From Trichodelitschia bisporula (taxonomy: Eukaryota): 64,000 nucleotides of DNA. This document shows, in pieces, positions 1-23,207 of this stretch. Made by a program: the position numbers and the translations under genes. The stretch is from assembly GCA_010356995.1 (NCBI GenBank), contig ML996705.1:1-64000 (forward strand). The letters are read 5' to 3'. The notes beneath the pieces were generated by a model. The model saw only the letters and a list, made by a program, of their open reading frames with translations. It did no database searches and was not told where the DNA came from. How positions within the stretch are numbered: position 1 is the first letter of the stretch; every line of letters starts with the position of its first letter.

Positions 1-806
1 TGAGGGGGAGAGCTTTTCGGTCGAGCTTCTGAAAGAACTTGGCTAGGTCATCGGCTGTGATCGCGGCCAGCTGGAGATCGGGCAGAACTTGCTTCACCGA
101 CCAAACAGCGTCGGTTGAAGCATCTCGGTCCATGGGGGACTTTCCGGGTTCCAACCACAGGCAGTTGGTGGAAGTAACGTGTCAGGGGCGTGCAAAAGTG
201 TGGAAGTCACGATGGGTATGGTGCAGGCATGAACAAGTTACTTCCACAAAGATCTATCTGAAGGGCGAGCCGCCAGACTCTTGAGCAGATCGCGCTGCCG
301 TCTGCCTAAGGCATGGCGGGGTGCGGGAAGGCTGGCGTGACGTGGCAGCAGCCGCGGGGGAAGATCGTGGGGAGCCAATGAGGTTAAGGCCCGGCATTGG
401 TCTCCCACGACACAACGTGGCTGTTGCTTGTTCTCTAGTCATGATCATCAAGTCATAAAGCCTAGCCTCGTCAATAAAAGAAGAATGGGGCTAGGAGCAC
501 CTACTTTGCGCCCTTACACTTGTACTCCAGCCATTCTTGATCGCTTATGAGAAATGCAGATGACAGGGGCGGATCGACGTCGTTTTTCGTATCGCAAGTG
601 CGCGAGATCTTTCTCGGGAATATCTGAGTGAAATTCTGCGGCAGTTAGCGGGAAAGCAGGGGGAACAACCAACGAACCTTGTGAATAGCGTCGGAGCTGA
701 AGTGTGCAAGATCAAGCTGCCCCAATGTAGCCAGTGGCTGTCTCAGGGCGTGTACCGTGGTACAAATCACCGCGAAGGGCATGGCGAAAATCATTGCGCA
801 GCGCAT
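1..806 (-). pseudogene. Secreted-family paralog A, disrupted by a solo LTR and a frameshift; 3' part runs off the window
   Basis: ATG at 806, with introns 636-677 and 462-504 (GT..AG; clear CTAAC branch in the first). Spliced product: MRCAMIFAMPFAVICTTVHALRQPLATLGQLDLAHFSSDAIHK|NFTQIFPRKISRTCDTKNDVDPP...DQEWLEYKCKGAK|LYDLMIMTREQATATL, matching the W..xCKGxxL..L/M motif of paralogs B-E. The LTR occupies 180-412. Beyond it the sequence reads ...PESP, shifts frame in a C5 run near 134-138, then reads MDRDASTDAVWSVKQ, comparable to ESPFQD...GWS in paralog C. Confidence 0.75.
180..412. mobile_element. Putative solo LTR (233 bp)
   Basis: TG...CA termini with imperfect inverted ends (TGTCAGGGG ... 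CCCACGACA). Flanked by TAACG (175-179) and CAACG (413-417), a 5-bp target-site duplication with one mismatch. It interrupts paralog A exactly where family homology breaks. Confidence 0.7.
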
Positions 807-1844
807 TGGAGCGGCACCCGGAAGGATGGAATGAGGTGTCGGAATAGACAGTTTGTAGTATGGTACCGTATGATGTGGGTTGCGGCGTTGGGTAATGGTG
901 ATCGTGAGATTTTTCGCTGCGATTGGAAGTTTGAACGTGACAGAAACTCAGGGCGCTGTAGAGCAAAATATTGTGGGGGGATGGAGGAGAAGAACGACTC
1001 AAGACAAGCTCAAGGCTCAATATACGATGCAGCGGATTTTCGTCCACACCCCTTCCTTCCCCCATACGTACCTGCCACGGGGGGTGGGCAACTTACCGCA
1101 GGTGCGCCTTCCGTTTTTGGCATATCCCTTGTCAAGAGTGATACGCTTCTTCCAGCGGTTGGTATGATGCCTTGTCGTCGTATTTGCCTTAATGCCCACC
1201 TGCCTGAGTGTGAGGTACCTGTCTACAGAGGTCGAGTTGATGCAGAGACTAGTAGGAATGCGCGTCCGTCGTACATAAACGCTTCTATTAGGCTACTGAG
1301 AGATTTTCGGGCCTGGTATTCTACATACAACATGAGTGGCCATATCGCGGCCTGGCTTTATGTAATGCTCCTGTCATCTGCCGCCCGGCACGGTCTATCG
1401 CTGATAGAGTCCGCATTGCCGTCCCATACCGCCGTCCCATACCAAGCAAGGTAAGGCAGTGTCTTTCTCAGGCGTGCAATTATATTAGGTTATTCACAAA
1501 CACGAAGTCATGTTGGACTGGAGAAGCTGAGAACAGATGAAACAAAGGTTTCTGTTGATTGACGTCGACTGAACTGTCGAGTGTACCATGTGGGCAACTC
1601 GTACTATATAGGAAATATGAAACAGGAGTGGAGTCGAGCCAAAGATACGATGAAACAAGACAACGGAGGTAAGCAATCCCGAGCGCTAACGGATACCGGC
1701 TACAAAGATATCGAGCGCGAAGTAATACAGGAACTTACAATATCAGAAGGCTGTAACAAATGGGAATCCGTCTAACAAGTCATTCATCAACGCAAAGCCC
1801 TTCATGATGCAATTGGAACTACATTCACTGCTACCTAGCCATTC

Positions 1845-3028
1845 CTAAGCATCTTCTATTTTGGCCAGAATGTGCTTCTTGTTGTTGGCCGACCGCCAGA
1901 TCGTGATTTCAGTGACGACCTTCGTCCCAAATCGTGTCTTTCGGTTAATAAGCATCCATGCGATGCCTAGCATGTTTGGGGTACCTAAAGGTCAGCACCA
2001 TTCGCCCTGCACGAAGACGGACTCACTCATGATAACTTTGCCCTTGGTGTGAGCCGTACTAAAAGTGATTCCCGGCCAGAGTGGCCAGTCGAACTTTTCA
2101 CGGCCAGTCAATGGCGGTTGACAGGTTAAGAAGTTCAGAGCGAGCCCGATAGTGTCGACTGTTTCGAAGTTTGCCACATCAATACGCATAATGTATCGAG
2201 GAGCCTCAATTGGGCCGTCACCGTCTCCTTTAAGCTTCTGCCAACCTTGAAAGATAACGTCGGACCATCGGCTCAGCGCTGGTATCGGTGTCACTTCATC
2301 CATGCGTGAAATGAGCTGCGATTGAGGGCCGAAGTTGTAGTAGCATCCAATGAAGTTATCCACCGGGTTGAAGATGTTGTAAAAACCTGCGGCAGTTGGC
2401 TGGATGGATTAGCTTTTGGTTGAAGCGGGTGGTAGGGCTTACCGGATACCGCTTCCCGCTGACTGTGTAGAACGCGTTTTGGATCCATTGAATGACCCTA
2501 TTGTTCGAGCCGCGTCCAGTTTCAGGAGGGATATTGATTGAAGCTAGCGCATCGCCAAGCGCGTATTTTATGAGAGCATTCTTGCCGAAGAGTTCCGACT
2601 CCGACCAGCCATTCTCCACAACCCAGTTCGCATCGTGGTACGGCGCTTCGCTATCGCGATTCAACTTGGCAGTTGCGTCCTCCCGCGTCAGGCGCTGCAA
2701 GCTGTCCAGCTCTGCCCCTTTGCACTTCGCCCTCTGCCAGTTTTCCTTCTCATTATCGGACTGGAGGGCTGTGGCGTGTTCATCTTCACTTTCGGTGTTG
2801 CAGCGCTGTGACTGCCGTGAGAAGATCGAAAGAACAGAAGCGTTCTAGGCATGCTTAGCTTTGTGAGCAACGGGGTGATACATAACATAGACTTACGGTG
2901 GGATTAAGGGAGCCGCTAAAGAGGTCTAGCGGTTGTGGGCTGTTTAACTGGAAGGCCACCGCATCGACCACAAAATGGGTGACGATGGCGGCATAGAGCA
3001 CCAAAGAGATCAAGGCGCGGGGATGCAT
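1845..3028 (-). CDS. Uncharacterised secreted pre-pro-protein, paralog B (4 exons)
   Basis: Signal-like N-terminus MHPRALISLVLYAAIVTHFVVDAVAF. Introns at 2845-2896, 2400-2442 and 1985-2026. Motifs WQRAKCKGAEL, RWSDVIFQGW, APRYIMRIDV, WPGITFST, STPNMLGIAWMLINRKTRFG and KIEDA*. Confidence 0.85.
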
Positions 3029-4634
3029 TGTTAAGGGCTGTGAAGTCCTTGAAATTCAAGTCTGCAATGATGGATGATGTGAGTCGCTCTGTGCGAATTT
3101 GTGGGTATTGGGGGGGGGGTACTTTGTGGGCTTGAGCTTGCAAAGCGGTTGCCGATGCACCAGAGATCAACGAGGAGTGGAAGTCTGTGCAGCGTGAGAG
3201 GCAGGTATACAAGCCAAAAAAGACCGAAGTTTGTCTATTTCAATTAGTCGTCAAGCACCCTCGGCCAGAGCTCAAAACGAGTGAAATGGGACAAGATATC
3301 CTGAAGCCGGAGTCTAGAAAGTTTGGACTGGCAGATCCAAGTCCACCACCGAGCTACCCTAATTGCTCCTATCGGACGGTACGGGATAGCCAGGTGCATC
3401 GTTTTTTGCATCTGCAGTGTGAGAAGTTCGTGTGAATGTCGCAAGCGTCAAGTCATTATTTGGAGCGGAATAAACGGCTGACGCGATTTGATAAACCTAA
3501 GGAAGGAACGTTCATTCCTGAAAGGCGCAGTCGAGCTCTACAGTAGGAAGGGGCGTTCTTGCTCTGGGAAGGACACTTCTCTAGGAGAAATGGCTGGGGA
3601 AACTCTGATGGAAGTAACCTGATGCACTGCATGCTAACCGCTTTGCCGAATGGTTACTCGTTGGCGTTCCATTTGAGTGCATCTGCACTTTTTCTCTCGC
3701 GGACTTGGCATCGTGTTCGCTTAAACTTACTTAGCCCTGGCCTTGCCTCCGCCGACGTCTCCGGAGCAGACTACATGTACACTCCTTTGGCTTAGTTTTG
3801 CTCTCGTGTGGGTCCTGGTTCCACTTCTAACTCTCATTCTGCTATACGCATCCTTACTGTAGCCGCAAGATGGGCCGATGATGCGGCATCCCAACGTGTT
3901 TCTTGCGCATAGACTCCGGTGAGGTGGCATCAGCTTCCATGTTTAGCAGTAGCATTTTTCACTCAATAGGACCAGACCAGACGATTCAAAGGCCAAGCAT
4001 CTTACATATGGCTGATTCAGACGTCTTCAGTCTGCTCATTCCATTACCCTAACTGCGCCGGGAAGGGTACTAATGCATGGATTGCCCGGGAGATAGCCAC
4101 ATCCGATGGACTAAAACCCATCTAAGTCTGAGGCTTGGCCAATGGCCATTGACTTGCTGTCTGCCTTTCAAAAGGGCGAGAGCCTGCTGGCATCTGAATA
4201 TTAGAAATCTGCACGATTTTGTTGAGTGCCGCTAGCATCCGTCCATCAGCCGCCATGCTCTTCCCGCGCCGTCCTCCGGCGTCAGGGGACGAGGTGGAGT
4301 TAGGAGGCATGGGCCGCTGGCAGCCAAAACGCCGCAGACATAGAACTCGCTTGCGGAGATGTCAGATGTGAACTGATATGCCCTGCTCAAACGTTTTGCC
4401 AGAAAAAATCCCGTTTCTAGCGGCAGTACTTCAACTGTGATGGCCGCAAACGCCATGTATGGCTCTATATGATGCCATAAACATGTAAGCAAGCCTACTA
4501 TAATAAACATACGCCCGCCAAATACCACCAGCAAGGAGCTCCACCGAACTCCCGCGCCAAACCAGCAATTGAAGTAATGCAGAGAGCCCAATACAATGAG
4601 CAAAGCCTGAGCAAAGCCTGCGCAAGATATGCGT

Positions 4635-7143
4635 CTATGCGATGTAAGTGTACTTGCCGTCCTCGCGCTCCATGTAGTCCTTGTCGATCAGCTTGTCAAT
4701 GTTCTTCTTGATGTCCTCAATGGCCAGCACACCGCGCTTGCGCGTCGCCTCGATGACCTCGGCCACCAGCACGGCGTGCACAACCGTCTGCTTGCTCTTC
4801 ATGATGCGCACAATGGCCGCCTGGGTCTCGTAGTTGCGGTCCATCATGACGCGTTCGTGCGTCAGTTTGTTCTCCTCTTTCGTCTCGCGCAGCTGGACCT
4901 GGTTGATCTTGACACGGTACTTCTCGTGCGTGAAGCCGGCGTTGAAGTCGAACGTGTCGCTGTCGTCAATGTCGCGGCAGGCGGGGTGCTTGCGCAGCGG
5001 GCGCACCTTGCCGCAGGCGAGCGACTGTAGCGTGCGCTTGAGATCGGCGTCGGCTGCTTGGTTAGCATAGAAGAGAGTGGGGAGAGTCATACGTAAGCCC
5101 GTCTCCGCTTTCAGCCGCGTGTACGGCAGTCGTTGCTCGCTCACACCGTTGAACTGCAACAGCACAATCGCTTGGAAGCCCGAGACAACGAGCTCCTTGC
5201 GCCCACTCGGAAAGTGGGCACGCAGCTGACAGTGTGCGAGCGTGTTCTTCCACTCGAGCTTGCGGCCTTGGTGCTTGCTGCGGTAGTGCTCCTCGAAACG
5301 GTCCATCTCCGTCTTCACCTCGGGCGGAATGTTGACCGCCACGTCGGGGTACGACGGCCACGCGGACGCGGCGAGGATGTTGACGCTAAAGTCAACGGCG
5401 CTTTTCGGCTGCCTGTCCTTGTAGTTAGCGAGCTCCTCGCGTGCGAGCTCAACATCCTTGAACATCTGTTCAAGGTTCTGCGTGAAGCTTCCACCGCACT
5501 CCGTCTTCAGGCGTGCAAGCATACTGCGCTCGGCGTCGGCGCTAGCGCTGCGCCCCATGAGCAGACGTCGCGCAAGGTCGTTCCGGTAAAAAGTCTCAAA
5601 CACGGCCTTGCCGTCCAGAAACCGAAACAAATCCAGCACCTGATCGAGCTGCGCGTCGACCTGCTCGGTCTCGCTGCCGTGCGCGAACTCGCCTGGCACT
5701 GCCTTCGCACCACCCCGCAGTAACGCGTCCAGATACTTGGCAATCATCTCACCAGGCTTGGAGTTGTCGGTGCCCCACGTCATGTCAGATTTCTTCGTCT
5801 TATTGATGAAGGTGTGGAAGGTTTGGCGCAGCGCGTGTCCAAGGTCCGGGTCTCGTTTGAAGGCTGTTTCCCATATGTCGTCGAGCTGCTGTTTGAGGAG
5901 AAGCAGCTTGCGCACCATGTCCTCGTCGTCTGCGAAGACGATGGCCGTCCCGGTACGGTCGATCCACGCGACGAAGCGCGGACGCAGCAGCTTCGTCAAC
6001 TGGCGACGAGCGAGCAGCGCGTAGACTTTCTCGAGTGCCGCAGCATCTCTGGCATCGAGCAGCCGCCCGATGTCGGCAAGTGTCTCGCTGTGCCGTTCAA
6101 TCAGATGGTCCTCCAGCAGCGACCACAGCGCTTTCTGCGTGGCCTCTGGCAACCCGACGGCCTTGCAGCGGTCCATCTCCGATGTCATGAGGTCTGACGC
6201 GCGGGCAACGTACTCGGCGAGCGGGGCACGTGCGGCGGCCTCTGCCCACGGCGTAATGTACTCAGCAGATGCGCGCAACAGCGGGCCCTCGATCTGGTCG
6301 TAGATGCGCAGCGCCTGGAACATGGCGACGACGCTGCGGAACAATTCCTCGTCGCAAGTGCCCTCGCGCTGTGCCTGCAACAGCTGGCACGCGCCGTCAA
6401 CGCACTGGCGTATACCTTTGGGGTTGTCGACGATGTCGCGGAACATATCAACGCCCATCTGCTGGACGCACGGACGAGTGGAGTGGAGGAGGTACGAGCG
6501 GTCGAGAAAGTAGAAGATGGCCTGGATCGTGTTCTGGTGCAGTCAGCACGTATGTTCCATGTAGCCCATCACGGCACGCCGCAAGGAGCACGCCGCAACA
6601 ATTGGGACCTACCATCTGCTTCGACCACCGAGTCCACGCAGGTTGGAGCGTCCGCAAATACTCGATACCGGCACCCGCCAGTGTCTGCGCTGGAATCTGC
6701 GCGCACGCCCGCAGCGCTGCCTCCAGTCGGTCGGCCAGTTCGCTGGCAAGGCCTTGCCGGCAGATGTTCTCGGCGGCACGGTACAGCTCCTCCATAGAAC
6801 ACGGCAGTGGAGCGTTGGCAAAGACAGAGCGCACGGCAGCCTCCAGACGCGTCCATGTCTGCAAAAAGTATGCGCGCGTGTCCGGTTCGCGCGTTGGGCG
6901 TAGATTCTTGATAACGATGCGGCGGGCGCCGGGAGGGAGTCTGGCCTTAGGAGGGGGGACGTCGCGGGTGGCGAAGGAGTACATGTCGTCGGCCTGCACA
7001 CACGCAGGCTGCGTCTTGGGCCGCTTGCTGTGCTCTTGAATGGGGGAGGAGAAGAGACTCGGTATGGACTGCTGTTGATCGTTGAGTTGGCGTTTCTTGG
7101 AGCGGCCCGCGTGGAGGGTGGAAGGTGTCGGCGCTCCCTGCAT
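4635..7143 (-). CDS. cul4: Cullin-4
   Basis: Motifs IFYFLDRSYLL, WGTDNSKPGEMIAKY and LARRLLMGRSASADAERSML, plus the neddylation domain AAIVRIMK...LIDKDYMER. Introns at 6534-6612 and 5054-5092. Start placed at MQGAPTP (7143). Confidence 0.93.
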
Positions 7144-7366
7144 CTCGGCGGTTCGGTTCAATGCGGGGTGGGGGGAGGCGCGAAAGGGCGAACAGGAAAA
7201 GGGTTGTCGGGAGGTCCGGGAAATCCCAAGCAGCAAGGAGCTTTAGACGATGATGAGGGATGATAAGAGTTAATGGCTGCAGAGTGACTGGATTCTGAGT
7301 TGTGAAGGCAACGACTTTTGCTTGACAGTAATGGAGTTGGGGGCGCGTTAGTTTCTGCTTCGAGAG

Positions 7367-7707
7367 CCTGTCTGTCTCTTTCCCATGTCAAATGTTCCAG
7401 GCGAAGCCATTCAAAGCCTGAGGCAACAAACTCGACAAACCACGCGCTCACCACTCATTCATCAACGGACCTCACCTCGGACTAGTGAATTGACAACATA
7501 CATGCAATTAGGACGTTAGTGATATAGTACTGTAGCTCCCGAGCTTACGATTCGTTGCAACAATCCTCATGTCTGTCTTTTCTCGTTTCTGTCCATCTTC
7601 TATGCCAAGCGATTAGAACCACAACCTGAGGCAACAAGCACGACAAATCGTCCCTACACGATTCAGCACCATTGACCTCGGACGAGCGATTGACAAACAC
7701 GCATGCA
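7367..7707. repeat. Degenerate direct duplication (about 140 bp units, about 205 bp apart) in the divergent intergenic region
   Basis: The blocks gtctgtct..., cctgaggcaacaa.c.cgacaaa, acctcggac.ag.ga and attgacaa.ca..catgca occur in the same order at about 7367-7506 and 7571-7707. Confidence 0.6.
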
Positions 7708-7879
7708 TCAAACATCAGAGATAGCCACTGGCTTATCGCCACCGCCATTCCGATAGAGCTGCGATAGGTGTCGGCTGGCTATCGTGTTCCGGCTGATCTC
7801 ACCAGACTGCCTTTGACAATCCTGCCTTTAATACACCTCCTCCCCCCCCGCACATCCATTGCTCTCTCCATCGTGAAGT

Positions 7880-9017
7880 ATGGTGCCGCTCGACCTCCCC
7901 GTCATTGATATTTCCACCCCTAGTCTCGAGATGGCCGAACAGCTTACACAGGCAATCTCACAGCATGGCTTCGTCTACGTTAAGAATGACTCTCAAGCAA
8001 TTCCGTCGGCCGATATCGATGCAATGTTTGACCTCGTGAGTTGCTAATCTTTGTCGCACTTCCAGCACTAACCGCGTCTCCTATAGTCGCAAAGCTTCTT
8101 CTCTAGCCCCGTCGACATCAAATCCCCAGTGGCCGTTAACTCCGGCGCCAGCGGCAAGAACAGCGGCTGGATCGCGATGCACTCGGAGACTCTGGATCCG
8201 CTGAAGCAAAAGGTAGATCGCCAAGGCTAGTGAGTAGCGACATGGAGATGCTAACTCCGCAGCGTGGCGACTTCAAAGAGTGCGTCGATGTCTCCACCCC
8301 GCGTTCCCGCGGTACCCTGTCCCTTGACCTGGAAGCTCCACTGACCTCCCACCCATCAGGGCGTTTAACCTCAACGAGTTCGTGGCCGGCAAAGCGCAAC
8401 AGCCGCTCCCCGCACCGCTCGTCCCGCACGAGGCCCACATCGGTACCTTCGTCGACCGCTGCCACGTGCTCTGCACCGACGTCCTCCGGCTGCTCGCCCT
8501 CGGGCTTGGGATTGACGAAGACTGGTTCGCGGCGCGCCATGAGCGCGCCCGCGGCCCGTCCGGCAGCGTTTTCCGCATGCTCTACTACCCGAACATGCCC
8601 GCTTCGGCTCATGACGCAGATGACATCCGCGCCGGCGCTCACAGCGACTACGGCTCTGTGACGCTCCTCTTTCAGCGCCCGGGGCAGCCTGGCCTGGAGA
8701 TTCTCACCGATGGCAGCTGGAGCCCAGTGCCGGTAAACCCCGGCAATGACACCGTGCTGCCCATTCTGGTCAATGCCGGCGATCTGCTCAGCCACTGGAC
8801 CAACGGCCTGCTCAAGAGCGCCGTGCACCGTGTCGTTTTTCCCTCCGGCAGTGCGGGTGATCGCTACAGCCTTGCCTACTTTTGCCACCCGCTGGACGAC
8901 GCCGAATTGGTACCAGTGCCAAGCAAGCTCGTCGCAGGACATGACCGGCCGGTGTTGACAGCACAGCAGCATCTTGAGGCCCGGCTCGCGGCAACCATGG
9001 CCCTCAAGGGTGCGTAG
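7880..9017 (+). CDS. 2-oxoglutarate/Fe(II)-dependent dioxygenase (IPNS-like, DIOX_N)
   Basis: N-terminal LPVIDIS...HGFVYV, with HSDYGSVTLL (HxD), SAVHRV (distal His) and RYSLAYF (RxS). Introns at 8036-8086, 8213-8262 and 8280-8359. Confidence 0.92.
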
Positions 9018-9975: not shown

Positions 9976-12009
9976 ATGGATGGGTACCGGCCTGTTGAAA
10001 TTGAAGACAGTCACATCACCAGCTCACAGCAATCTGCGCCAGTCAGTCCGATAGAGCCTCCGGGAGCTGCTCTGCTTTCCGAGTCGGGCTTCCTCGAACC
10101 GGCCTCGGTTAAACGGACCATTCCTGAACCCACCCTACCCGACCCCAGACTACAAGCACCGGCCTCCGCTGAACTAACCACTCCCGAACCCACCCTAAGC
10201 GACCCCGAACTACCTCTACCGGCCTCGAAATGGAAATTGCTTGGCTCTCTTCCGACCCTGTTTCTTCTGCAAGGTTGGTGAAAGGAAGCCGCCTCGCTCA
10301 TTTTGTCCTTCATCCTGCTCGCTGCCATCTCCGTTGTCCTGAGTGCTTTCCACCTCAGAAAGCAGCCCACCAGCTTCAACCTCTCAACGGCGGTCGCCGT
10401 CCTAGCCACACTCACGCGGACCTTCTTGGTCACCGTCGTTGAAGGAGGTTCGTGCCCCTCATGAAGACGAAATATGCCGCTTGATTCCTGACCAAACAGT
10501 CGTCAGCCAGCTGAAATGGTACTGGCACCTCAATCCGCAGCCCCTCCAACACCTGGCGCTTTTCGACGACGTCACCCGCAGTCCCCAGGGCTCTCTGAAG
10601 TTCTTCTGCCGAATCCGCTCACTGTACGCAGTTCTCTGATGGGTACGTGGCTAATTTGACTCATCTGCTCTCTTCCCCAACTGGGCGCTGCCATCACCAT
10701 CCTGTCCTTGACCATCAGCACGTTTGCGCAGCAGGCGGTCCGTTCTGTTTCCTGCCCGATGCCGGTCACGAAATCGTACCCAAGCATCACAACCGCTACC
10801 GCAATTGCCGATAACCCCTGGGGTGACCCGAACAAGTCCTATGGCCTCAAGGCCGAGACGAAGGGTACAATTCTCCGCGCCCTATCCAAAGTAGCTCTCT
10901 CGATAGCCTTGACTGAAAACATTCCTCCGTTTATAGGGAACTGCGGTAGACCAGCGAATAGATCTTGAGGTCCTCAGGACTCAACTGGACGATTCTTTGG
11001 AATGGATGCTTCACTTGGCAGACGTCCCTTTCCTAGCAACCCGCTCGGCGTCAATCGTCAACTGGACGGTGCTGATTGGCACCCAGACTCGCTGCATCAC
11101 AACCCCTCATGGTGTTTATGACCCGAGTTTTGAGTTCGATAGCATAGACTGCGGCACTCCATTCAACTCCTCCAACGATTCCTACAAGTTGCCGTTCCGC
11201 TACATCTCCACTCTTACCTGCCCGCCCCACTGAACAGCTATGATTCCACATTCGGCATCGCATCATACGTTGGCGTTACTGCAACCTGTGCCTTCAACGG
11301 CACGCGCTATTATCTTGGGGAGGGAAAGTCTATCACTGTCACCCCCCGGAATTCCAGTGTCGCAGACATCACCGTTGAGCTGCCCTCCGGTTCTCTCACT
11401 CTGCCTCCGGGATGCGTGCATCCTATCTCTGGCCTCTACATGAAAAACCTCCAATCCTTCCTATCCGATATTCTCAACGGCACTTGTCATCACCCGGCTT
11501 CCCAAAGCATGCTCAACTTCATTGATCGCACGAGAGTTGTTTGTTCCAGCTTCCAGGAAGGCAAGGTGATCGACGCATGGTGGCTGGAGGACTTGTATCA
11601 ACTAGGATTTGCGATGTTCACAGGGATCTACCGCATCATGGGCGTCATGAGCGCCAGTATAACGACAGAAATGCGCTTCAACGGCCGGCGCCTGCAGGTT
11701 GTAGGCACGGCATACGAGACCCCAGTGTGCACGGAATTTTCGCCGTGGTGGCTAGCGATGCCAATAACGCTACTACTGCTCGGAGCTCTGCTGCTAGTGG
11801 TAGCAGCACTGCAGTCGCTGCGGCATCGCGATGTCCCGCTTTGGAAGATGTAGATTTCACAGTTGGTTTTAGCCGGGCTGCCAGAGAAGTCCGAGTCGCT
11901 TGTTGGAATGGCGGAGTTGAAGACCCTGGCCAGGGGGACTGTAGTGGCGTTAGAGCGGACGGAGGACGGGTGGAGATTTGAAGACAAAACGGACCGTGAT
12001 GAGTCCTGA
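9976..12009 (+). pseudogene. DUF3176-like membrane protein pseudogene
   Basis: Motifs VSQLKWYWH...FDDVTRSPQGSLKF, LGAAITILSLTISTFAQQAV and VVGTAYETPVCTEFSPWWLAMP...PLWK. In-frame stops at 10279 (GW*KE) and 11851 (WKM*ISQL), with further disruptions near 10966-11400. Confidence 0.75.
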
Positions 12010-14571: not shown

Positions 14572-17500
14572 ATGGGAGACAGTGATAGCCAAGATCCTTT
14601 GAGCCCGCGTCTGCTGGCGCAGCATTTATCCCTACTCGAGCAGCATTGTTCAGAACCACTGGACCACGACAGTCCCGACCTTGGCCCACTCCTCTTACTG
14701 CTCGACCTCCTCCGCGATTCTCCCACCCCGCGCATCTTCCTCAATTCCCACTCCGATCCACCGCAACCTGAGCCGGAGATCCAAATCTGGAGGGTTATTG
14801 TTTCATTATGGGACAGCCGCATCGGACAGTCTCTGCTACTGTGGGCCAAATGGATCTCCGTTCCCGCAGTCCAGCCGCGCAGCGTCCTCAACGATCCCGT
14901 CTACTGGCAGCGACTGCAGGACAGCCTCAAGGGACAGTCGAGCGCCCAAAAGCTGGCTCTCCACATTTTGGAGCGCTCGATCCAACTCCTGGATGACGAC
15001 GTCGATGGCCCAACCCTGCATTACGTCGCGTCCCGGCGGACAGAGTACGTCGACGCCTACAGCGCCTACTGCCGGCTCTTCGAGATCATTGTCATCGGCC
15101 GCTACATCAATCAGGTTCAGGTGTGCATCAACTCGTGGGCCAATTCCTGTCCACAAAAGGCCCTCACTTTGGACCACCCTGTCCACAGCACGTGGTGGAA
15201 CGCCCTCTTTGCGGCCGCACTTTCCCAGCCCAATGCCGGCATCCAACAGCTCATCGGGCGTTGGCTTCTCGGAAACTACCTTATGACAACATACGCCGAG
15301 AGCTACGCTTCTCTTGTCACCCAGGCGCTCCTCCCTTGGGCTGCACGTGGCCCGCTTCTGTCAAAGACGCTGCGGCGCGGCAGAAATGTTTCGGACAACA
15401 ATGACCGACTGTTGCTACGATTCGGGACTGTCACCTCGGACCACGGTGAGCAGCTCTTGTGGTTCTGCACCCAACTCACGTCCGGCGATGCACGGTCGAA
15501 GCTGCAATACGCGAAAGCCGTCCTCCGCTACTTTGTAGATCACCCCTGCCACGCCGCGGTGTGGGCCTTCATCGGCCTTGACTGCGGAGTTCCCGGCTGG
15601 ACGCTCGATGTGGAAGCTCTTCGTCTCATCCAAAAACTGGCCTTGGCCCTGACCGGTGTGCGTCGAGCCATCGTTTTGCATCGACTCTTTGAAATCTGCA
15701 ACGACGAGCCCCCCGTGACATCCCCCGCATGGCGTGCCGTGGCCCGCTTCCAGGCCGACTGGCGGGCCACCCACGTGCGGCTGCACGCAGACGAGGTGGA
15801 TGCATGGCTCGGCATCAGCCCCGGCCCGACGGCCATTCGTGAGGGCAAGTGGGGCGAGCTCATGAGCTCTGTCGAACTCGCCATGCGGCATCCGTCGCAG
15901 GACACCATCACGCTGGCCTGGGGGCTGGCCTCTGATCTCAACTATCCCCTAACTGTGATGCAGTCGTTCCCTGACATACTCCTGCACCGAAACGCGATAG
16001 ATCTGGTGGAAAAAGAGTTAGCAATCAAGCAATCCGTCTTTGCGACATTCCTCGCCGACATGTGTCTCCAGCTTTACAATATCGGGCAGAGTAAACCGTG
16101 CATCTGGAACCGACTGGCGGCCGCTGCCCGAAATGCATTTGTGCCGGCACCCCACTTAATCTGGATACTGTTGGATAATCTCATCGTGCAGTTTGCGAAT
16201 GAGCCTCCGCGCGCCTCTCCGGACTTTTTGCTTGATGTATCCTTGATTTATACTATCGGCAGATTTGTTTCCGCAAACGAGGCGTACGGAAATGCGTGCT
16301 TCTTCGATCTTCTCAACGTCAAAGGCGTGGGCCTTCCCTACCCCGAGTTCAATAGCCAGCGGACTTTGCAAAAACTCTTTGATCCGTGGCTGGCACAGCG
16401 CGTGCCGGCGCCGATGGTGACCGCTTGGAAGCGAAGCACCCAGCTTCAAGTGATGGCGCTCCTCGTCAGGTCGCAGAGTAGCAACACCTTCGATCAATGG
16501 CAGCAGCTCTACACCAACTTCATGCGCCTTTTGGCGCTCGAGCCTTCACCGCCCCTCCGCAGCATCCTCGAGTGGATTATCAGCTCCATCAGCCTTCATT
16601 CCAGGCTCAACTTCCAGCCCGAATTTATGGCGGACATGCTTAGACGTCTCCAGGATCCAGAGGACTCCAACCCGAAGTTCGTTGCATCGATAATCCGACT
16701 GGCTTCTCGCTTCATCATCCATTCCAAGAAGGCAGCGTTTAGGGAGTTTTGCACTGCCGTTCTCATCGCCACGGTGCCCCTCTGCACCCACCCCAAGGTG
16801 GTCATCCGGCATGACGCCCAGCGGTGCTTCCCGCTCGTCTACAAATGCGCCGAGGAGGCCGAGTGGCCCGTTGCGGAGAACCCGGCGCTATCAGCGTTAG
16901 ACCATTTTATCCGGCAGTTGGATGCCCTACGGAATCCGCCCGCGAGCAGCAAATTCGAGGCGCTCGGTGTCTTCCAGCCGTTGGACTTGACCTCACTGTT
17001 TATGGGTGAGCATTTCGGCCCGGAAGGAGCTTTGTTGGTCGCCGACTTTGGCCTGCTTTTTTCAGACGAAATGCACTTCGAGAGAAATGTGCCGTTCGGC
17101 GACGGTTTCTGGTCGGCACCGAAGCTAAGCATGCCACCCCCATCGCGTCCAGGCTCAGCTGGTTTCACAGGCGATTCAGCACCTGATTCTCTGGCCCGAG
17201 GGCCTCTACAGACCAAAGCCGTGTCTCACCCAGATCATCTCAACGACAAAATGGCGCCCGTCCAACTGGACCCAAACCACAGCGCCCCCATATTGATTGC
17301 GTCATTGGTCGAAATGGCCGTCAACTTAGGCGGCTTATCCCGTATCGCCGACATCTTCGGGGCCTTCGAGATGCACGTCCACGACAAGGTGGCTCTCAAG
17401 ACAGCAGAGTTCCAGAGCGTGTCGGTGGCCAGCGATAAGCACGTATCCGTTGTCGAAACGAAGAAAGAGAACATTGCAGCTTACTTGCGCCGGCTGAAGC

Positions 17501-17751
17501 AAGACGGATGGACCGTAGTGGGCGTCGAGCAAACCGACACGTCCCTCGTCCTGGGAAACGACCACTCACTGCCGAAGCGCGCTGCGATCGTCATGGGTGC
17601 CGAGAGAACGGGCATTCCGGGAGGCATTTTGGCCGAATGCGACGTGTGCTTCGAGATCCGCCAGTGGGGTGTGTCGCGAAGTCTCAACGTCCAAACAGCG
17701 GCGGGCATCGTGATGCACGAGTGGCGGCGCATTTGGGGCGACGGAGCGTGA
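14572..17751 (+). CDS. TRM3: TRM3/TARBP1-like tRNA (guanosine-2'-O)-methyltransferase
   Basis: Single 1059-aa ORF. C-terminal SpoU domain (NLGGLSRIADIFG, VVGVEQT, MGAERTGIP, EIRQWGVSRSLNVQTA) follows a long helical N-terminal region. Confidence 0.85.
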   Translation: MGDSDSQDPLSPRLLAQHLSLLEQHCSEPLDHDSPDLGPLLLLLDLLRDSPTPRIFLNSHSDPPQPEPEIQIWRVIVSLWDSRIGQSLLLWAKWISVPAVQPRSVLNDPVYWQRLQDSLKGQSSAQKLALHILERSIQLLDDDVDGPTLHYVASRRTEYVDAYSAYCRLFEIIVIGRYINQVQVCINSWANSCPQKALTLDHPVHSTWWNALFAAALSQPNAGIQQLIGRWLLGNYLMTTYAESYASLVTQALLPWAARGPLLSKTLRRGRNVSDNNDRLLLRFGTVTSDHGEQLLWFCTQLTSGDARSKLQYAKAVLRYFVDHPCHAAVWAFIGLDCGVPGWTLDVEALRLIQKLALALTGVRRAIVLHRLFEICNDEPPVTSPAWRAVARFQADWRATHVRLHADEVDAWLGISPGPTAIREGKWGELMSSVELAMRHPSQDTITLAWGLASDLNYPLTVMQSFPDILLHRNAIDLVEKELAIKQSVFATFLADMCLQLYNIGQSKPCIWNRLAAAARNAFVPAPHLIWILLDNLIVQFANEPPRASPDFLLDVSLIYTIGRFVSANEAYGNACFFDLLNVKGVGLPYPEFNSQRTLQKLFDPWLAQRVPAPMVTAWKRSTQLQVMALLVRSQSSNTFDQWQQLYTNFMRLLALEPSPPLRSILEWIISSISLHSRLNFQPEFMADMLRRLQDPEDSNPKFVASIIRLASRFIIHSKKAAFREFCTAVLIATVPLCTHPKVVIRHDAQRCFPLVYKCAEEAEWPVAENPALSALDHFIRQLDALRNPPASSKFEALGVFQPLDLTSLFMGEHFGPEGALLVADFGLLFSDEMHFERNVPFGDGFWSAPKLSMPPPSRPGSAGFTGDSAPDSLARGPLQTKAVSHPDHLNDKMAPVQLDPNHSAPILIASLVEMAVNLGGLSRIADIFGAFEMHVHDKVALKTAEFQSVSVASDKHVSVVETKKENIAAYLRRLKQDGWTVVGVEQTDTSLVLGNDHSLPKRAAIVMGAERTGIPGGILAECDVCFEIRQWGVSRSLNVQTAAGIVMHEWRRIWGDGA

Positions 17752-18581
17752 GCACGGCTCATGAGTTGTTTGGTGATGAGCACAGCCGCCCTTTGCAGCC
17801 CGATGCCGCCTATTGGCCCGGCATGGAGCCTTGAAACCTCCCTGAACCTACAGATGGAATCAAGTCATCTGCTCGCGCCGAATGCACCTCCGGTGCAGTC
17901 GTGGCCAGCCCAAGCGGCGTTCATTCGACAAACATGAAGGATTGCAGTAAGAAGCTTCGAGCGGCGTACCAGTTCAGAGGCATGCGAGGAGCTAGCGACC
18001 AATTCACCACGGGCGTGGACCTGGAAGGCCATGAGCTGAAGTTCTGTTGGGCTTCAGAGGCATTGAAAGAAACGCCACCGGTTCCCATTTCAAGCGCAAA
18101 GGAGAGTACGACGAAAAGAGGCTCAATCGCACGACCGGTTTTAGTCGCCTAAAGCGGTCCGGTGCTGGAATGTCGTCGTGGTCACTTGCTCATGTTTAGC
18201 GGTCGGCAGAGTGCGCGTTGGTGGGTATGCCCGCAATTAACCCATGAGATGGTATTCGGCCATTGATCCATCGGATATTCGCCATTCTTGCATGCAAAGG
18301 ACGAATGACAGAAGTTAAGGACTTGAGAGAAGGTTGGATGTGGTTTCGTCTGATGGTTGGTTCATGAGAGCAGGAACATTACAGGGTTACATCCGATCCC
18401 GTCCATCGTGATCGTGCCTTCCTTCAGACCAGTAATTTTCCCCTCCAAACCGCATCCCCGCCCGGCCCCTCTGACTATCCATAGTTGGTTTTTGTCGCTC
18501 TTTTGCTTGACATCAATCTTTCCGCTCCCCGTCAACTCTTTACCCGCTGTGCTCCTGACCAGCGTAACCCCCCGCTGCGCA

Positions 18582-19723
18582 ATGCTTTCTTTCTGCACGC
18601 TGCCACTCTTTACGATCGCCCTTCTTGTCGCTGGTGCGCTCGCCCTACAGCCGCAAAACGCCGAGACGCATCTCATCTATCTCACCGACATCATCGGTCT
18701 CAGTGTCAAGGTTAGTTAGCCTGACTCGCCAAAATCAAACAGCTTACCGAGACAGAATGCATCCCTTCTCTCTCACCTCTTGCCCCGCCAGAATCCCTCT
18801 TGCAACCCTGACGACGACGACGACGATCCCTCGGGCTTGGTCCGTCGCGACGAAACGTCTGACAAGTTCAAGGCAGCAGTGTGCAAGGGAGATAAACTTC
18901 TTGCCTTAATGCAGGCGAGCGAAGAACACGCTGCTAAAATCGCGGGACAGAGCCAGGAGAGTCCCTTTCAGGACACTGCCGACATTGAGCAAAACGGCTG
19001 GTCGGCTGCAGAGATGCCCATGAAGACTCGCCTGTCGATGTATGATTTTCCCGAGGCACTCGAGGCCATAGGCATAGAGGAGCCGACTGGTCCTGACACC
19101 GACAACCGCATCATAGCCTTGAAAAATGACCGACCGTACACCGTGAGCGGACAGGAATATCCAGTGAGTTTAACGGCTCCATGGTGAATCCGCTAAACGG
19201 ACAGGGTACACAAGGAATCTATCTGAGCGTCTTCAACACCAAGTCGCTGGTGATCGCCGCCCTCTCAAACTACGGCCCGCGTTACAAGCTTGCTGGCACC
19301 ATCGGGGCCGAGAATCAGCCTCCGCCGACTTTAGAGCGCTGGTCGGACCTCGTCTTCCTCGAGTGGCAAGCCTTGATGGGTGGCTCCGGCGGACGGATCG
19401 ATGCTCCCCGGTATGTCCTGCGGGTGGATGTACAAAACCAGGACACACAAATAGTCGTTGGTGAAGCTCTGCGCCGTGTCATTTGCTTCCCACCCATGAG
19501 ATCTGCCGACAAGCTATATTGGCCCGACTGGCCTGGTATGACTTTTTCGACCAAGCGCAAAAAGGGGAAGGCCATCCTCGGAACACCAAACGTGTTCGGC
19601 GTAGCTTACTTTCTAATCCAACATAAGAGCAAGCTGGGCAACCAAGTCATCACACAGATTACCGTATTTAAGAGTTCTTCAACGATGGCTAAGATGCTTC
19701 TGCTCAAAATAGAGGCGGCCTAG
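18582..19723 (+). CDS. Uncharacterised secreted pre-pro-protein, paralog C (3 exons)
   Basis: Signal MLSFCTLPLFTIALLVAGALA. Introns at 18711-18755 and 19164-19204. Candidate processing sites LLPRQ and LVRRD. Motifs VCKGDKL, RWSDLVFLEW, APRYVLRVDV, ILGTPNVFGVAYFLIQHKSKLG and KIEAA*. Confidence 0.88.
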
Positions 19724-20039
19724 CTCCCCTAAAATATGAAATGTTGACTTGTATTGTGCATATAATTGTGACTGCCGGTTTGGCTGGGTCCATTAATTCC
19801 CTTTGGCGGCGGTCGGACAGTGACATGAATTTTGCTTCGGAGGACTGAGTTTGGGCTTAAGGAAATGTCTTGAGCAACTTCACACTTTCTGCCACAAGTA
19901 ACACCTTACACCCGTCCATTGGCTTCTGCAAGCTTCCTGTCAGCCAGAGGGCGAGGTCCGTTCATGTACCAACCTTCTTTTCCGCAATCTAAGCGGTACC
20001 TAGTACTACATCCTCTGCTCTCCTGCGCTCTTTCCCTCA

Positions 20040-21280
20040 ATGTTGTTCTTTACGGTTCTCCATGTTTTGGCTCTTGCCGCGCAGGCCTTCGCTTTTCGTT
20101 CGGCCAACGACGCCGCCCAACTTTATGTCAGGGTTTTCGATACTCTCAGCGCCAGCTTTGCCGTGAGGAAATCTACAATGGTTCAACCCAGCGCTTACTG
20201 TTCTAGAATGCATCCTTCCACAACGCCACCAAGTTATCCGCTAGACAGGCACCTGCTCATGTCTGCGATACCGACAACGACGTCGAGCCGACATCTTCTG
20301 CGGCTCCTCCGGTGGGTTTGTCGGGCGCTCCCCAGTGGGCATCGGACGACGCCTGGAAAGAGGCGAAATGCAAAGGCGAACGGCTTTGCAACTTGATGCG
20401 AGCGGCAAAGGACGAAGCAACAGCTATTCTGAAGGCGGATAGTGAAAGCTCTTTCCAGAACCCCGCGGACAATCCCTTCAAATCAAGCGGCTGGAGAGTG
20501 TTGGAGACTTACAGCACAACGCGCCTCTCGCAATATCGCATTTCCGCAGCTTTAAGTTCAATCGGCGTTCCAGAGGAGGCAGGGAAGGGTACTTCTAACA
20601 GGCAAGTCATAGCTGTCCAGGACCGGCCGTATACCGTCGATGGCAACGAGTACCCAGTAAGCATAAGCTCCGATGCTATTCGAAGCCGACCGACTAATCT
20701 CAACTACAGTACACTTCAGCGACGTTTAGCAACGTGTACAACGTCGACGCGCTCTTCCTTGGAGCCACCGCAAACTTCGGGGTTCAGCACCAGATGGCTC
20801 ACCGCCCTCATCTCAAAGATAATCCTGCACCCGCCCTAAACCGCTGGTCAGATGTTGTGTTCACGATCTGGGACGGCTTCATGGGTGGCCAACCTGGGCC
20901 AATCAAAGCACCCAGATATGTGATGCGTATAGATCTCCAAAACCTCGAGACCAAGCAGCTAGTAAACAAAGCCTTGAGTATGCTTGTGTGTGATCCTCCT
21001 TTGACTGAGGAAGAGAAAGCTAGCTGGCCGGCGTGGCCGGGCGTGTCTTTTAGCACCGAGCATACCAAAGGCAAGGCTCTGTTAAGTGAGTGAGCTTTCC
21101 AGCCGGTAATGCCAGATATTAACCAGAATAGATGCACCAAACGCTATTGGCGTTGCCTGGCTTCTCATCAACCATAAAGTGCGATTTGGCAGAAAGACTA
21201 TCACTGAAATCACGATTTTCAGTGCCGGTACTCCAGGGCAGGAGAAAAAGTTTATATTGCTCAAGATTGAAGATGCGTAA
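20040..21280 (+). CDS. Uncharacterised secreted pre-pro-protein, paralog D (4 exons)
   Basis: Signal MLFFTVLHVLALAAQAFA. Introns at 20163-20206, 20657-20709 and 21086-21131. Motifs WKEAKCKGERL, RWSDVVFTIW, APRYVMRIDL, LLNAPNAIGVAWLLINHKVRFG and KIEDA*. Confidence 0.88.
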
Positions 21281-22116
21281 ATGCTCACGCTTTCAGCGCG
21301 GAGTTAAGGTCAGCCAACGGGAGATATTTGTGTAGTACCAAATCAGCTTTGAACGCACACACAGCATGTGCCGAGAATTTAAAGCCGTAGCTAACGGCCG
21401 GTTGTGACGTTAGAGACCGACCGTGATATAGGCCGCCGTTCACTAATTGGGAACTTCGTGGGTACACTATGGGATGCATGGACACCCACGATGTATAGAC
21501 AGTGCGCCTGCTGACGGCCGCTTGCTGCAGATTATTTGACCTTACAGCTCTAGCATAAGCAAGAGTTATGATTTTAATAGCTGGTCAACGTCTGTTTCAT
21601 AAGCTAGTTGTGATTCTTTGAATTGGTCGTTCACTGCGCCTCCCCGTCTCAAGCGGACGAAGGTTCCGTCCGATGGCTGGTGTCATCGCCAAACTTTACT
21701 TTTCGGCTCTGCCCAGCTCCATCAGCCTTCATTTCACCTATCAGGTGAATAAAGCTCCCGGGTGAAATATCTGACTGGATAGATGTAATTCCCAAGCAAA
21801 GATGTGCATGTTTCGTCTTGGACAAGGCTGAATCACGTGTTGAAGCAGCTCTTGGCATTGCTTCGGGAGCTTCAAGATGCTTTGGATGATAGATGGGGAA
21901 GTTGCGATGGAGCTTCCGGTCTTGGACAATGAGCAGCAAACATATCTGCAAAACCTTTGACCATATTTTCTTGCATTCACATCCGCACTCACGTCCTTCA
22001 CATCCGCAGCCGCATCGCAACGAACAGTAAACGCCCCTGATTGCTACCTCTTTCACTGGACAATACTAGCAGACACGCACACTCCCTCTACATTCGCAAA
22101 GCCACCGTACGCCGCC

Positions 22117-23207
22117 ATGCATTCAGCAGTAATTTGCCGCCTGGCACTCATCGTGCTGATCCCTTTTCTTCTGGTCCTTGCCAATTGCTCCATCGCCGGC
22201 AACAGGGTCCGCACGATCGGAGCCGCACATGTGAACATCTCCGTCCCTCAGTCACCAGTCCGCTAACCCAGATACTCCAGCCCTCCAACACCTCTCACCC
22301 AGTCGCGCCAGTCCTTCGAGCGCGCACCGATGATACGCAATGGCAAGAATGGGTGTGTAAGGGCGCGAAACTTCACCGGTTGATGGAAATGACCATCGAG
22401 GAAGCGTCGAGAGAGCTAGGGAAGCCGTCGGAAAGCACCTTCACTCGCGCCGACCTTACGACGAGTGGCTGGGCCAAGATCCAGCAGCCGGACTTCTATT
22501 ACTTGGGCAAGTTCCAAGAACAAAACTTCCAGCAGATGTGCAGTGCAATTGGCGTCACCCTCGACACCGGTGTGGGCACGCCAAACAACCCGGTCCAGTG
22601 GACACAGGACGAGGAATATCTCGTGGATAACGAGTTTCTTGAGGTGAGTTTCTTCTGGGCGAGGTTGATGCCATCTGACCCTGAATTCTAGCCCACCAAC
22701 GGATGGTACACAAATTTCTTTAATCCTGCCGAAGGCCTCATTGTGGCGTGGTCGAATCGGGGACCTAAGTACAGACTCAAAGAGGAAGGTAGGGGGCGCC
22801 AGCCGGCGCCGCCGCTTTACCAGTGGTCCGACGTCGTGGGCTTGGAGTGGATAGCGCAGAGGGGTGGCTCGTTCACGACCGATCCGGTCGAGGCTCCGCG
22901 GTATATTCTAAGAGCGAATATAGCCAATGATGAGACCCTGGATATTATGGACGAAGTATACAACCGGCACCCAGCCTTCAAAACCATAGACCCGCCTGAT
23001 TGGCCTGGTATTTCCGTTCGGACCGATGATGAGTTCGGACAGACCCTTCTGGGATCTCCGAACGGTCGAGGGTGTGCTTGGCTGTTGATTCAGCGGAAGG
23101 CGAGATTCGGCATGAAGAAGATAGGAGGGATAACGTTCTGGAGGAACCAGCGTGGGCTGCGTGAGATGCTTATGGAGGTTGAGGATGTGGGTAATGCGGC
23201 TGTCTAA
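22117..23207 (+). CDS. Uncharacterised secreted pre-pro-protein, paralog E (3 exons)
   Basis: Signal MHSAVICRLALIVLIPFLLVLA. Introns at 22231-22280 (weak GTGAAC donor) and 22644-22691. Motifs WQEWVCKGAKL, QWSDVVGLEW, APRYILRANI and LLGSPNGRGCAWLLIQRKARFG. Confidence 0.82.

What the first reader, a model, noticed from the sequence alone, without database searches (positions are those of the whole stretch)
1..23207. Five-member locally expanded family of uncharacterised secreted pre-pro-proteins (candidate effector/toxin system)
Seen: after manual splicing, copies A (1-806, pseudogene), B (1845-3028), C (18582-19723), D (20040-21280) and E (22117-23207) share a signal peptide, an intron at the same position after it, a variable acidic pro-region and a CKGxxL motif. 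The intact copies B-E continue with GW, N(Y/F/R)G, WSD(V/L)xxxxW, APRY(I/V)(M/L)R, WPGx(T/S), (G/S/N)xPNxxGxA(W/Y)xLIxxKxx(F/L)G and an acidic end. The copies are highly diverged from one another. Known: Kex2-processed pro-domain effectors use LxxR or dibasic sites. Inference: IFPR, IFSRQ, LLPRQ/LVRR, LSARQ and LRAR are maturation sites releasing a mature domain of roughly 270-290 aa. I cannot assign the domain to a named family. The conserved W/D/R/N residues suggest an enzyme or toxin fold under birth-and-death evolution.
Basis: partly seen in the sequence, partly recalled or inferred. Interest (0 to 1): 0.82.

Follow-up and report, generated by a model that had tools for sequence, protein, structure and literature searches.

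The report
Clustered secreted pro-proteins of unknown family
A dung fungus carries four intact copies and one decayed copy of a gene for a probably secreted, probably protease-matured protein from a large fungal family that nobody has described, with a fold that only faintly resembles acetyltransferases and no sign so far that it is a toxin.

Summary
The window is Trichodelitschia bisporula, a dung saprobe. Copies B, C, D and E are real paralogs at the stated coordinates (32-43% identity, tblastn E 1e-36 to 1e-63). Copy A is a decayed remnant. B and D equal deposited models. The contigs over E are unspliced, and I found no deposited model for E.

The C-terminal half hits 1103 cluster representatives (267 at E<=1e-10). 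It has no Pfam family and no relative by sequence in the PDB. All named members are "hypothetical" Dothideomycete proteins, and some carry up to 7-8 tandem domains.

Basic LxxR/KR sites sit just before the domain across the family and in 59 of 71 inter-domain linkers. This supports Kex2-type maturation.

Verdict: an undescribed secreted pro-protein and polyprotein family with a GNAT-like fold and untested biochemistry. The effector/toxin label has no support. Interest is moderate.

The parts
1..806 (-). Copy A, decayed pseudogene remnant
   Evidence: The signal-peptide exon starts at 806. Exon 2 (about 635-504) encodes NFTQIFPRK...CDTKND...CKGAK and is followed directly by a stop. The next similar stretch (466-392) is in another frame. 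Further short colinear remnants lie at 434-393, 171-151 and 117-64. tblastn with D residues 47-100 gives E 1e-6 against the 1-kb subject, or 7.6e-4 against the whole window. Any downstream part would run off the start of the window.
1845..3028 (-). Copy B, intact, 348 aa, equals deposited KAF2396746.1 (P0010)
   Evidence: Exons are 3028-2897, 2844-2443, 2399-about 2027 and about 1984-1845. Introns are 52, 43 and 42 nt. The third is phase 1; its exact GT..AG pair lies 2 nt from the codon-rounded borders printed. It is 100% identical to P0010. Candidate site IFSR|Q. The near-invariant His of the family is Arg here.
18582..19723 (+). Copy C, intact and expressed, 351 aa
   Evidence: Exons are 18582-18710, 18756-19163 and 19205-19723. 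RNA contigs of runs X1 and X2 show GT..AG joints that skip 45 nt (18711-18755) and 41 nt (19164-19204). The contigs run unbroken from 19205 to 19642 and to 19713. Candidate sites LLPR|Q and LVRR|D.
20040..21280 (+). Copy D, intact, 365 aa, equals deposited KAF2396753.1 (P0007)
   Evidence: Exons are 20040-20162, 20207-20656, 20710-21085 and 21132-21280. It is 100% identical to P0007. The AF2 model has mean pLDDT 87.2, with residues 88-365 mostly above 90. Candidate site LSAR|Q.
22117..23207 (+). Copy E, open frame intact (330 aa), splicing unconfirmed, no deposited model found
   Evidence: Predicted exons are 22117-22230, 22281-22643 and 22692-23207, with GT..AG introns of 50 and 48 nt. The RNA contigs 22047-23178 and 22160-23087 show no joint. 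It is absent from the hits, and one search found no protein of 301 aa or more. The best relative is Venturia inaequalis P0168, 40% over 277 aa. Candidate site LRAR|T.
18432..18484 (+). 53-nt GT..AG intron upstream of C's start codon
   Evidence: The joint 18431->18485 appears in contigs of both runs. The contig continues into the upstream SpoU-methylase gene, so I cannot tell which transcript the intron belongs to.

Best explanation
Copies B-E encode pre-pro-proteins of the secretory pathway. They belong to a large, undescribed Dothideomycete family.

Inferred course:
- A signal peptide of 18-27 residues is cut after an AxA-type site.
- A pro-peptide of about 25-35 residues carries an N-glycosylation sequon (NAS or NTS) and ends in [LI]xxR. 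A Kex2-type convertase removes it in the late Golgi.
- In B, C and D the product then starts with Gln. It keeps a short conserved Cys motif and an acidic tether before the domain.
- In E, as in most relatives, the basic site sits 10-20 residues before the domain.

The released protein is an alpha/beta domain of about 275 residues with a helical N-terminal part and a GNAT-like strand and helix order. It carries a family-specific conserved polar set: W-S-D at the start of a helix, two Asn, PNGxG before another helix, and a His. Relatives string up to 7-8 such domains on basic-site linkers, which implies release of many copies from one precursor.

My best guess at the role is an extracellular protein that binds or chemically modifies a small substrate in the fungus's surroundings or on its wall. 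I do not think it is a host-directed effector.

Shown: the paralogy, the gene models of B, C and D, the expression and splicing of C, the size of the family, the confident fold, and the enrichment of basic sites.
Inferred: secretion, cleavage, and any biochemical activity.
For: - Paralogy and models.
- Splicing of C.
- Family size: 1103 representatives at E<=1e-3 and 267 at E<=1e-10. All names seen are 'hypothetical' or 'uncharacterized' proteins of Dothideomycetes: Trichodelitschia, Venturia, Vermiconidia, Oleoguttula, Cladosporium, Alternaria, Pyrenophora, Phaeosphaeria, Periconia, Amniculicola, Lophiotrema.
- N-terminal hydrophobic segment: of 75 aligned relatives, 34 have 60 or more residues before the KG motif, and 30 of those 34 have a hydrophobic 12-mer (Kyte-Doolittle mean >=2.0) in the first 50 residues. 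Of the same 34, 17 have [KR]R, 19 have [LIVAP]xxR and 30 have an Arg at -26 to -8 from KG.
- Arg peaks at -13, -15 and -19. It occurs at -18 to -10 in 85 of 117 domain starts, redundant cluster members included.
- Linkers: 59 of 71 inter-domain linkers hold [KR]R, against 167 of 1130 same-length windows inside domains.
- Multi-domain forms: 38 of 169 proteins with the domain have 2 or more hits. P0004 has 7 full domains, and P0163 has 7 plus a fragment.
- Kex2 rules (P1 Arg, tolerant P2, aliphatic P4; KR, RR or LxxR after a disordered pro-domain): passages of PMC8528282.
- Fold: AF2 pLDDT 87.2 and pTM 0.78 for D, with residues 42-59 and 64-80 below 50. The domain-only relative P0115 gives 84.1 and 0.86.
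Against: - No signal-peptide or cleavage predictor was available, and no proteomic data. Secretion and processing rest on sequence patterns.
- B and D have no Arg within 26 residues of the domain. Their only candidate sites lie 30-42 residues upstream.
- 41 of 75 aligned relatives have fewer than 60 residues before the domain, and only 1 of those has a hydrophobic start. Many come from ORF calls on metagenome contigs, which would miss a first exon. At least one eukaryotic gene model lacks it too: Pyrenophora teres P0064.
- Linkers are disordered and polar, so part of the [KR]R excess may be compositional.
- The near-invariant His is Arg in B and E, which argues against a shared catalytic His.
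- E's transcript contigs are unspliced.
Confidence: 0.6

Rival explanations
1. The mature domain is not an enzyme. It is a protein needed in bulk, for example a wall or surface coat or a binding and sequestering protein. That would explain why relatives are built as polyproteins that release many copies.
For: Up to 7-8 full domains per precursor sit on basic-site linkers. Known Kex2-cut repeat precursors release products used in bulk (class 1 in PMC8528282). The near-invariant His is lost in B and E, yet their frames stay open. There are few Cys and no recognisable catalytic signature.
Against: About 14 positions are conserved in 90% or more of sequences across very diverged relatives, and several are polar (S, D, N, N, H). 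That looks more like a pocket than a surface. No binding partner or wall-anchor signal was identified.
Confidence: 0.3
2. One reading: a fast-evolving secreted effector or toxin family that acts on other organisms, whether plants, microbes or animals.
Against: The host organism lives on dung as a saprobe. The family also occurs in rock-inhabiting and aquatic saprobes. No search showed similarity to any known toxin or effector. The domain is large and poor in Cys, unlike typical apoplastic effectors. The AtaT and TacT rows are simply GNAT folds among dozens of others.
Confidence: 0.12
3. The hydrophobic N-terminus is a signal anchor. The proteins stay in the ER or Golgi lumen as type II membrane enzymes, where acyl-CoA can be supplied, and the basic sites are incidental.
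For: Several relatives have long hydrophobic stretches after a charged start, for example P0037, P0002 and P0012. A GNAT-like fold would need an acyl-CoA donor, which is not expected outside the cell.
Against: B, C, D and A have short hydrophobic cores followed by AxA-type sites. Basic sites are enriched exactly before each domain and in polyprotein linkers. That is hard to explain for resident membrane enzymes.
Confidence: 0.08

Closest known systems
Kex2-processed pro-domain (K2PP) secreted proteins of fungi (SnTox3, ToxA, SIX1/4/6)
   Same: A signal peptide, then a disordered N-terminal pro-region that ends in KR, RR or LxxR directly before the folded part (passages of PMC8528282).
   Different: The mature part is an alpha/beta domain of about 275 residues with 2-3 Cys, not a small Cys-rich effector. 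The organism is a dung saprobe. Cleavage is not shown. In B-D the candidate site lies 30-42 residues before the domain.
Kex2-processed repeat precursors (class 1 of PMC8528282; KEPs of PMC6339444 and PMC7329392, both seen only as search listings and abstract starts)
   Same: Relatives carry 2 to 8 tandem units separated by linkers, 59 of 71 of which hold [KR]R.
   Different: Each unit is a whole folded domain of about 270 residues, not a short peptide. The four window copies are single-unit genes.
GNAT-type acyl-CoA N-acyltransferase fold (AQ1966 2ARH, C-terminal domain of M. tuberculosis ICL2/Rv1916, Rtt109, EctA)

Membership tests
Kex2-processed pro-domain (K2PP) secreted proteins | N-terminal signal peptide | tested here: inconclusive
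   All five copies have hydrophobic cores followed by small residues at -3/-1: AVA|F, ALA|L, AFA|F, SIA|G, VHA|L. 30 of 34 long relatives have a hydrophobic 12-mer. No dedicated predictor was available. The (-3,-1) rule is applied from my own knowledge.
Kex2-processed pro-domain (K2PP) secreted proteins | Disordered pro-region before the folded domain | tested here: met
   In the AF2 model of D, residues 42-59 and 64-80 have pLDDT <50, and the domain from 88 onward is above 90.
Kex2-processed pro-domain (K2PP) secreted proteins | KR, RR or LxxR motif at the end of the pro-region | tested here: met
   IFPR (A), IFSR (B), LLPR and LVRR (C), LSAR (D), LRAR (E). Enriched in relatives. Motif definition from PMC8528282.
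Kex2-processed pro-domain (K2PP) secreted proteins | Cleavage by Kex2 demonstrated | not testable with these tools
   Needs N-terminal sequencing, or in vitro or kex2-mutant assays.
GNAT acyl-CoA N-acyltransferase superfamily | GNAT core fold (mixed sheet with the order b1-a1-a2-b2-b3-b4-a3-b5-a4-b6-b7; recalled definition) | tested here: inconclusive
GNAT acyl-CoA N-acyltransferase superfamily | Pyrophosphate-binding motif A, Q/R-x-x-G-x-G/A, before helix a3 (recalled definition) | tested here: inconclusive
   The stretch before the helix that I take as a3 by element order reads P-x-L-x-x-W-S-D, with no Gly. The family's most conserved motif, (T/S)PNGxG(V/I)A, precedes a later helix and lacks the Q/R. 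I could not see a residue-level structural alignment to decide which helix corresponds.
GNAT acyl-CoA N-acyltransferase superfamily | Sequence-profile membership (Pfam acetyltransferase families) | tested here: not met
   0 of 75 relatives hit any acetyltransferase family, even at E<=10. The window exons gave none. None for 20 further relatives.

The most novel reading that the evidence does not exclude
This is a previously undescribed, class-wide family of secreted GNAT-fold enzymes. They are released in multiple copies from Kex2-cut polyproteins and acylate or otherwise modify a target outside the producing cell, or inside a competitor. That would make them a fungal extracellular counterpart of the bacterial GNAT toxins.
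Probability: 0.08. Interest if true: 0.8.

Novelty: new variant of a known kind. Interest (0 to 1): 0.5.

Why it matters
The family has more than a thousand 50%-identity clusters, a confident predicted fold, no Pfam model, no solved relative and no paper that my searches could find. It is a sizeable blank in fungal secretomes, including those of crop pathogens such as Venturia, Alternaria and Pyrenophora. The polyprotein forms, whole 270-residue domains strung on basic-site linkers, are an unusual way to deliver a folded protein in bulk. If the GNAT-like fold reflects chemistry, extracellular acyl transfer by fungi would be new. If it does not, the family is still a clean target for structure determination and a family definition. 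For this window in particular, the work corrects one deposited gene model (C) and adds a gene with no deposited model found (E).

Tried and rejected
- Pfam on the window exons, on 20 relatives and on all 75 aligned relatives at E<=10: no shared family.
- PDB profile search: only 2 chance-level rows, E 0.41 and 0.55.
- ESM Atlas: best feature score 0.78 (metallo-endopeptidase-named clusters) and structural TM <=0.27. Both are below the tool's own noise bars, so I dropped them.
- The first all-against-representatives fold search was swamped by matches to the signal-peptide helix. I therefore modelled a domain-only relative.
- No whole genome is held for this window, so I could not count family members genome-wide or read beyond copy A.
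- The word-index searches gave little. The alignment A1 returned 3 proteins. E's last exon against longer proteins returned none.
Presence in bacteria was therefore not tested.
- Earlier findings of this scan: none.
- RNA runs: no listed holder is on record as RNA. The two runs used are labelled 'RNA?' and come from one study. D had no cover, and B was outside the laid stretch. I treat neither as evidence on expression.
- RIP-type mutation as the cause of divergence: the indices of the copies (TpA/ApT 0.57-0.82; (CpA+TpG)/(ApC+GpT) 1.19-1.41) do not differ in the RIP direction from the rest of the window (0.63; 1.14). The RIP thresholds are recalled.
- dN/dS was not attempted, because at 32-43% protein identity the synonymous sites are saturated.
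- Literature: searches for the species, Venturia + effector + AlphaFold2 + acetyltransferase (0 papers), secreted/GNAT-like/fungal/signal peptide/Kex2 (no paper held 'GNAT-like' with the rest) and '2ARH' (only chemistry papers) found no description of this family.
- The UniRef name 'START domain-containing protein' for relative P0055 is not borne out by Pfam or by the fold searches.
Full report
**What the window is.** Exon translations of the copies retrieve proteins of Trichodelitschia bisporula that are encoded on one 707,575-nt scaffold. This species is listed among dung-inhabiting saprobes in the 101-Dothideomycetes paper (PMC7082219, passage read). No whole genome is held for the window.

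**Checking the observation.**
- I built spliced models in scripts.
  - B: minus strand, 3028-1845, 348 aa.
  - C: 18582-19723, 351 aa.
  - D: 20040-21280, 365 aa.
  - E: 22117-23207, 330 aa.
- B and D are letter-for-letter the deposited proteins P0010 and P0007.
- Each copy finds the others by tblastn at E 4e-36 to 4e-63, and nothing else in the 64 kb at comparable scores. Pairwise identity is 32-43%.
- Introns 1 and 2 are phase 0 and sit at matching places in all four copies. A third, phase-1 intron is present only in B and D.
- Copy A keeps a signal-peptide exon, the NFTQIFPRK stretch, the Cys motif and CKGAK. It then hits a stop and a frame change, and leaves only short colinear remnants down to the window edge.

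**RNA evidence.**
- Two runs of one study hold about 40% of the words of 18300-23400. Their kind is only guessed as RNA, but their contigs carry GT..AG-bounded skips, so they derive from spliced RNA.
- For C, the contigs skip 18711-18755 (45 nt) and 19164-19204 (41 nt). They run unbroken from 19205 to 19642 and to 19713.
It contradicts the deposited model P0001 (309 aa). That model uses a longer first intron and removes 30 residues (APR|Y...MR|S, about 19411-19500) as an extra intron.
- For E, both contigs (22047-23178 and 22160-23087) pass through both predicted introns without a joint. An unspliced E message cannot encode the domain: a stop follows at 22264, and another at 22689.
- E is also missing from the protein hits that include B, C, D and a further T. 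bisporula fragment, P0013. A search for proteins of 301 residues or more found none.
- Yet E's three exons are open, its splice signals are canonical, and it is 40% identical over 277 residues to Venturia proteins.
- Whether E is spliced under other conditions, or the contig is antisense, remains open.

**The family.**
- C's last exon (172 aa) scored against 1.84 billion representatives gives 1103 proteins at E<=1e-3, 267 at E<=1e-10 and 10 at E<=1e-30.
- No Pfam family matches the window exons. None matches 20 relatives, or any consistent share of 75 relatives even at E<=10. A profile search of PDB sequences gives only chance-level rows.
- Every source name seen is 'hypothetical' or 'uncharacterized', and every named organism is a Dothideomycete. 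Many further members come from unnamed metagenome and run assemblies.
- A 270-position HMM of the domain finds it in 169 of the 170 proteins then held. 38 of them carry two or more copies. P0004 of Cladosporium fusiforme has seven full domains in 2213 residues, and a metagenome protein has seven plus a fragment.
- In a FastTree of 161 domain sequences, B, C and D form a clade (support 0.994). E joins them together with one unnamed relative (0.86). Venturia proteins and P0115 lie next (0.65). The cluster is therefore an old local expansion. The sample is only the best 150 hits plus cluster members.

**Maturation.**
- All five copies share, after the signal-peptide exon, an N-glycosylation sequon (NAS, NTS or NFT) followed within 5-12 residues by [LI]xxR: IFPR, IFSR, LLPR, LSAR, LRAR.
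- In A-D a conserved C-(D/N)-(T/P)-acidic motif follows 4-6 residues later.
- In D's model this Cys stretch (residues 60-63) is the only part of the pro-region not below pLDDT 50, and residue 62 is assigned a beta-bridge. This is a weak hint that the stretch docks on the domain and belongs to the mature protein.
- According to the passages of PMC8528282 that I read, Kex2 needs Arg at P1, tolerates several residues at P2 and prefers an aliphatic P4. Pro-domain effectors are sought as a disordered N-terminal stretch ending in KR, RR or LxxR.
- Across relatives:
  - Of the 34 of 75 sequences with 60 or more residues before the KG motif, 30 have a hydrophobic N-terminal 12-mer.
  - Of the same 34, 17 have [KR]R, 19 have [LIVAP]xxR and 30 have an Arg at -26 to -8.
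  - The four without such an Arg include the window's own B and D.
  - Arg peaks at -13, -15 and -19, and is present at -18 to -10 in 85 of 117 domain starts, redundant sequences included.
- In multi-domain proteins, 59 of 71 linkers hold [KR]R, against 167 of 1130 equal-length windows inside domains. Many linkers end in ...xPR|A or ...RR|A about a dozen residues before KG.
- This is good comparative support for convertase processing, but it is not proof. Polar linkers are expected to be richer in basic residues anyway.
- The other 41 of 75 relatives have short N-termini, and only 1 has a hydrophobic segment. Many are ORF calls on metagenome contigs that would miss exon 1. At least one eukaryotic model (Pyrenophora teres, P0064) also lacks it.

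**Fold.**
- With 75 relatives as the alignment, AlphaFold2 models D at mean pLDDT 87.2 and pTM 0.78. Residues 88-365 are mostly above 90, and residues 42-59 and 64-80 are below 50.
- Foldseek finds nothing at E<=1e-3.
- To get a clean list, I modelled the domain-only relative P0115 (pLDDT 84.1, pTM 0.86).
- Foldseek on this second model again gives nothing at E<=1e-3.
- The order of strands and helices in both models is compatible with the GNAT order, plus an N-terminal helical part and two extra helices before the final hairpin.
- I therefore call the fold GNAT-like in topology and do not file the family as GNAT. The scores are in the range the tool warns about. No acetyltransferase profile matches. 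I could not place the CoA-binding motif.
- Positions conserved in 90% or more of sequences are a Pro, W-S-D, a Trp, an Asn, WPG's Pro, and L..PN..G....L..H....G. The His is Arg in B and E.

**Context.**
- The two sub-clusters (A and B on the minus strand; C, D and E on the plus strand) are 15.5 kb apart.
- Between them lie a cullin, a 2OG-Fe(II) oxygenase, a kinesin and a large SpoU-methylase protein. An SBF-like transporter follows E.
- Nothing suggests a biosynthetic cluster or a multi-part system.
- The family loci are somewhat lower in GC (0.51-0.53 against 0.55-0.63), but they show no RIP-like dinucleotide bias.

**Verdict.**
- The pre-pro-protein reading is well supported by comparison, though untested.
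- The effector/toxin label is unsupported.
- The thing itself is a member cluster of a large, undescribed fungal domain family with a confident but only remotely GNAT-like fold.
- The family's most unusual trait, seen in relatives, is delivery as polyproteins of whole domains.
- Function is open between an extracellular enzyme or small-molecule binder (my preference) and a bulk, non-catalytic protein.

Noticed in passing
window 18711-18791 and about 19411-19500: The deposited model of copy C (P0001, 309 aa) differs from the RNA contigs in two places. Its first intron is 36 nt too long, which drops 12 residues including LLPRQ. It also removes 30 conserved residues (the APRY...PMR stretch) as an intron that the contigs do not skip.
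   Followed up: yes
window 22117-23207: Copy E seems to have no deposited protein model. The only transcript contigs over it retain both predicted introns. Its nearest relatives are Venturia inaequalis proteins (40%), not its neighbours B-D (32-34%).
   Followed up: partly
window 18432-18484: A 53-nt GT..AG intron lies upstream of C's start codon. It is in an RNA contig that continues into the upstream SpoU-methylase gene, so it could be a 5'-UTR intron of C, a 3'-UTR intron of the neighbour, or read-through.
   Followed up: no
window 10660-11853 (+): ORFs with no Pfam match lie between the 2OG oxygenase and the kinesin. The 236-aa piece ends in a hydrophobic stretch, so this is a possible membrane protein of unknown family.
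   Followed up: no
P0013 (KAF2398632.1, other scaffold of the same species): A further partial paralog (96 aa) is 56-57% identical to B and D. It is closer to them than they are to each other, so the family has at least one more locus in this genome.
   Followed up: no
P0066 (Trichobilharzia regenti, 1879 aa): A schistosome protein hits query residues 36-82 in 18 stretches at 26% identity. It may be a repeat artefact or contamination.
   Followed up: no
P0055 (Lophiotrema nucula): UniRef names this relative 'START domain-containing protein'. Pfam finds no such domain in it, and the fold searches give no START-like match.
   Followed up: partly
P0004, P0005, P0163 C-termini: Multi-domain relatives end in a short conserved tail after a KR site (...W(S/A/T)(G/S)L(R/W)L(F/V)). 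Its role is unknown.
   Followed up: no
window 1-4000 and 18000-22000: The family loci sit in stretches of lower GC (0.51-0.53) than the rest of the window (0.55-0.63), without RIP-like dinucleotide bias.
   Followed up: partly
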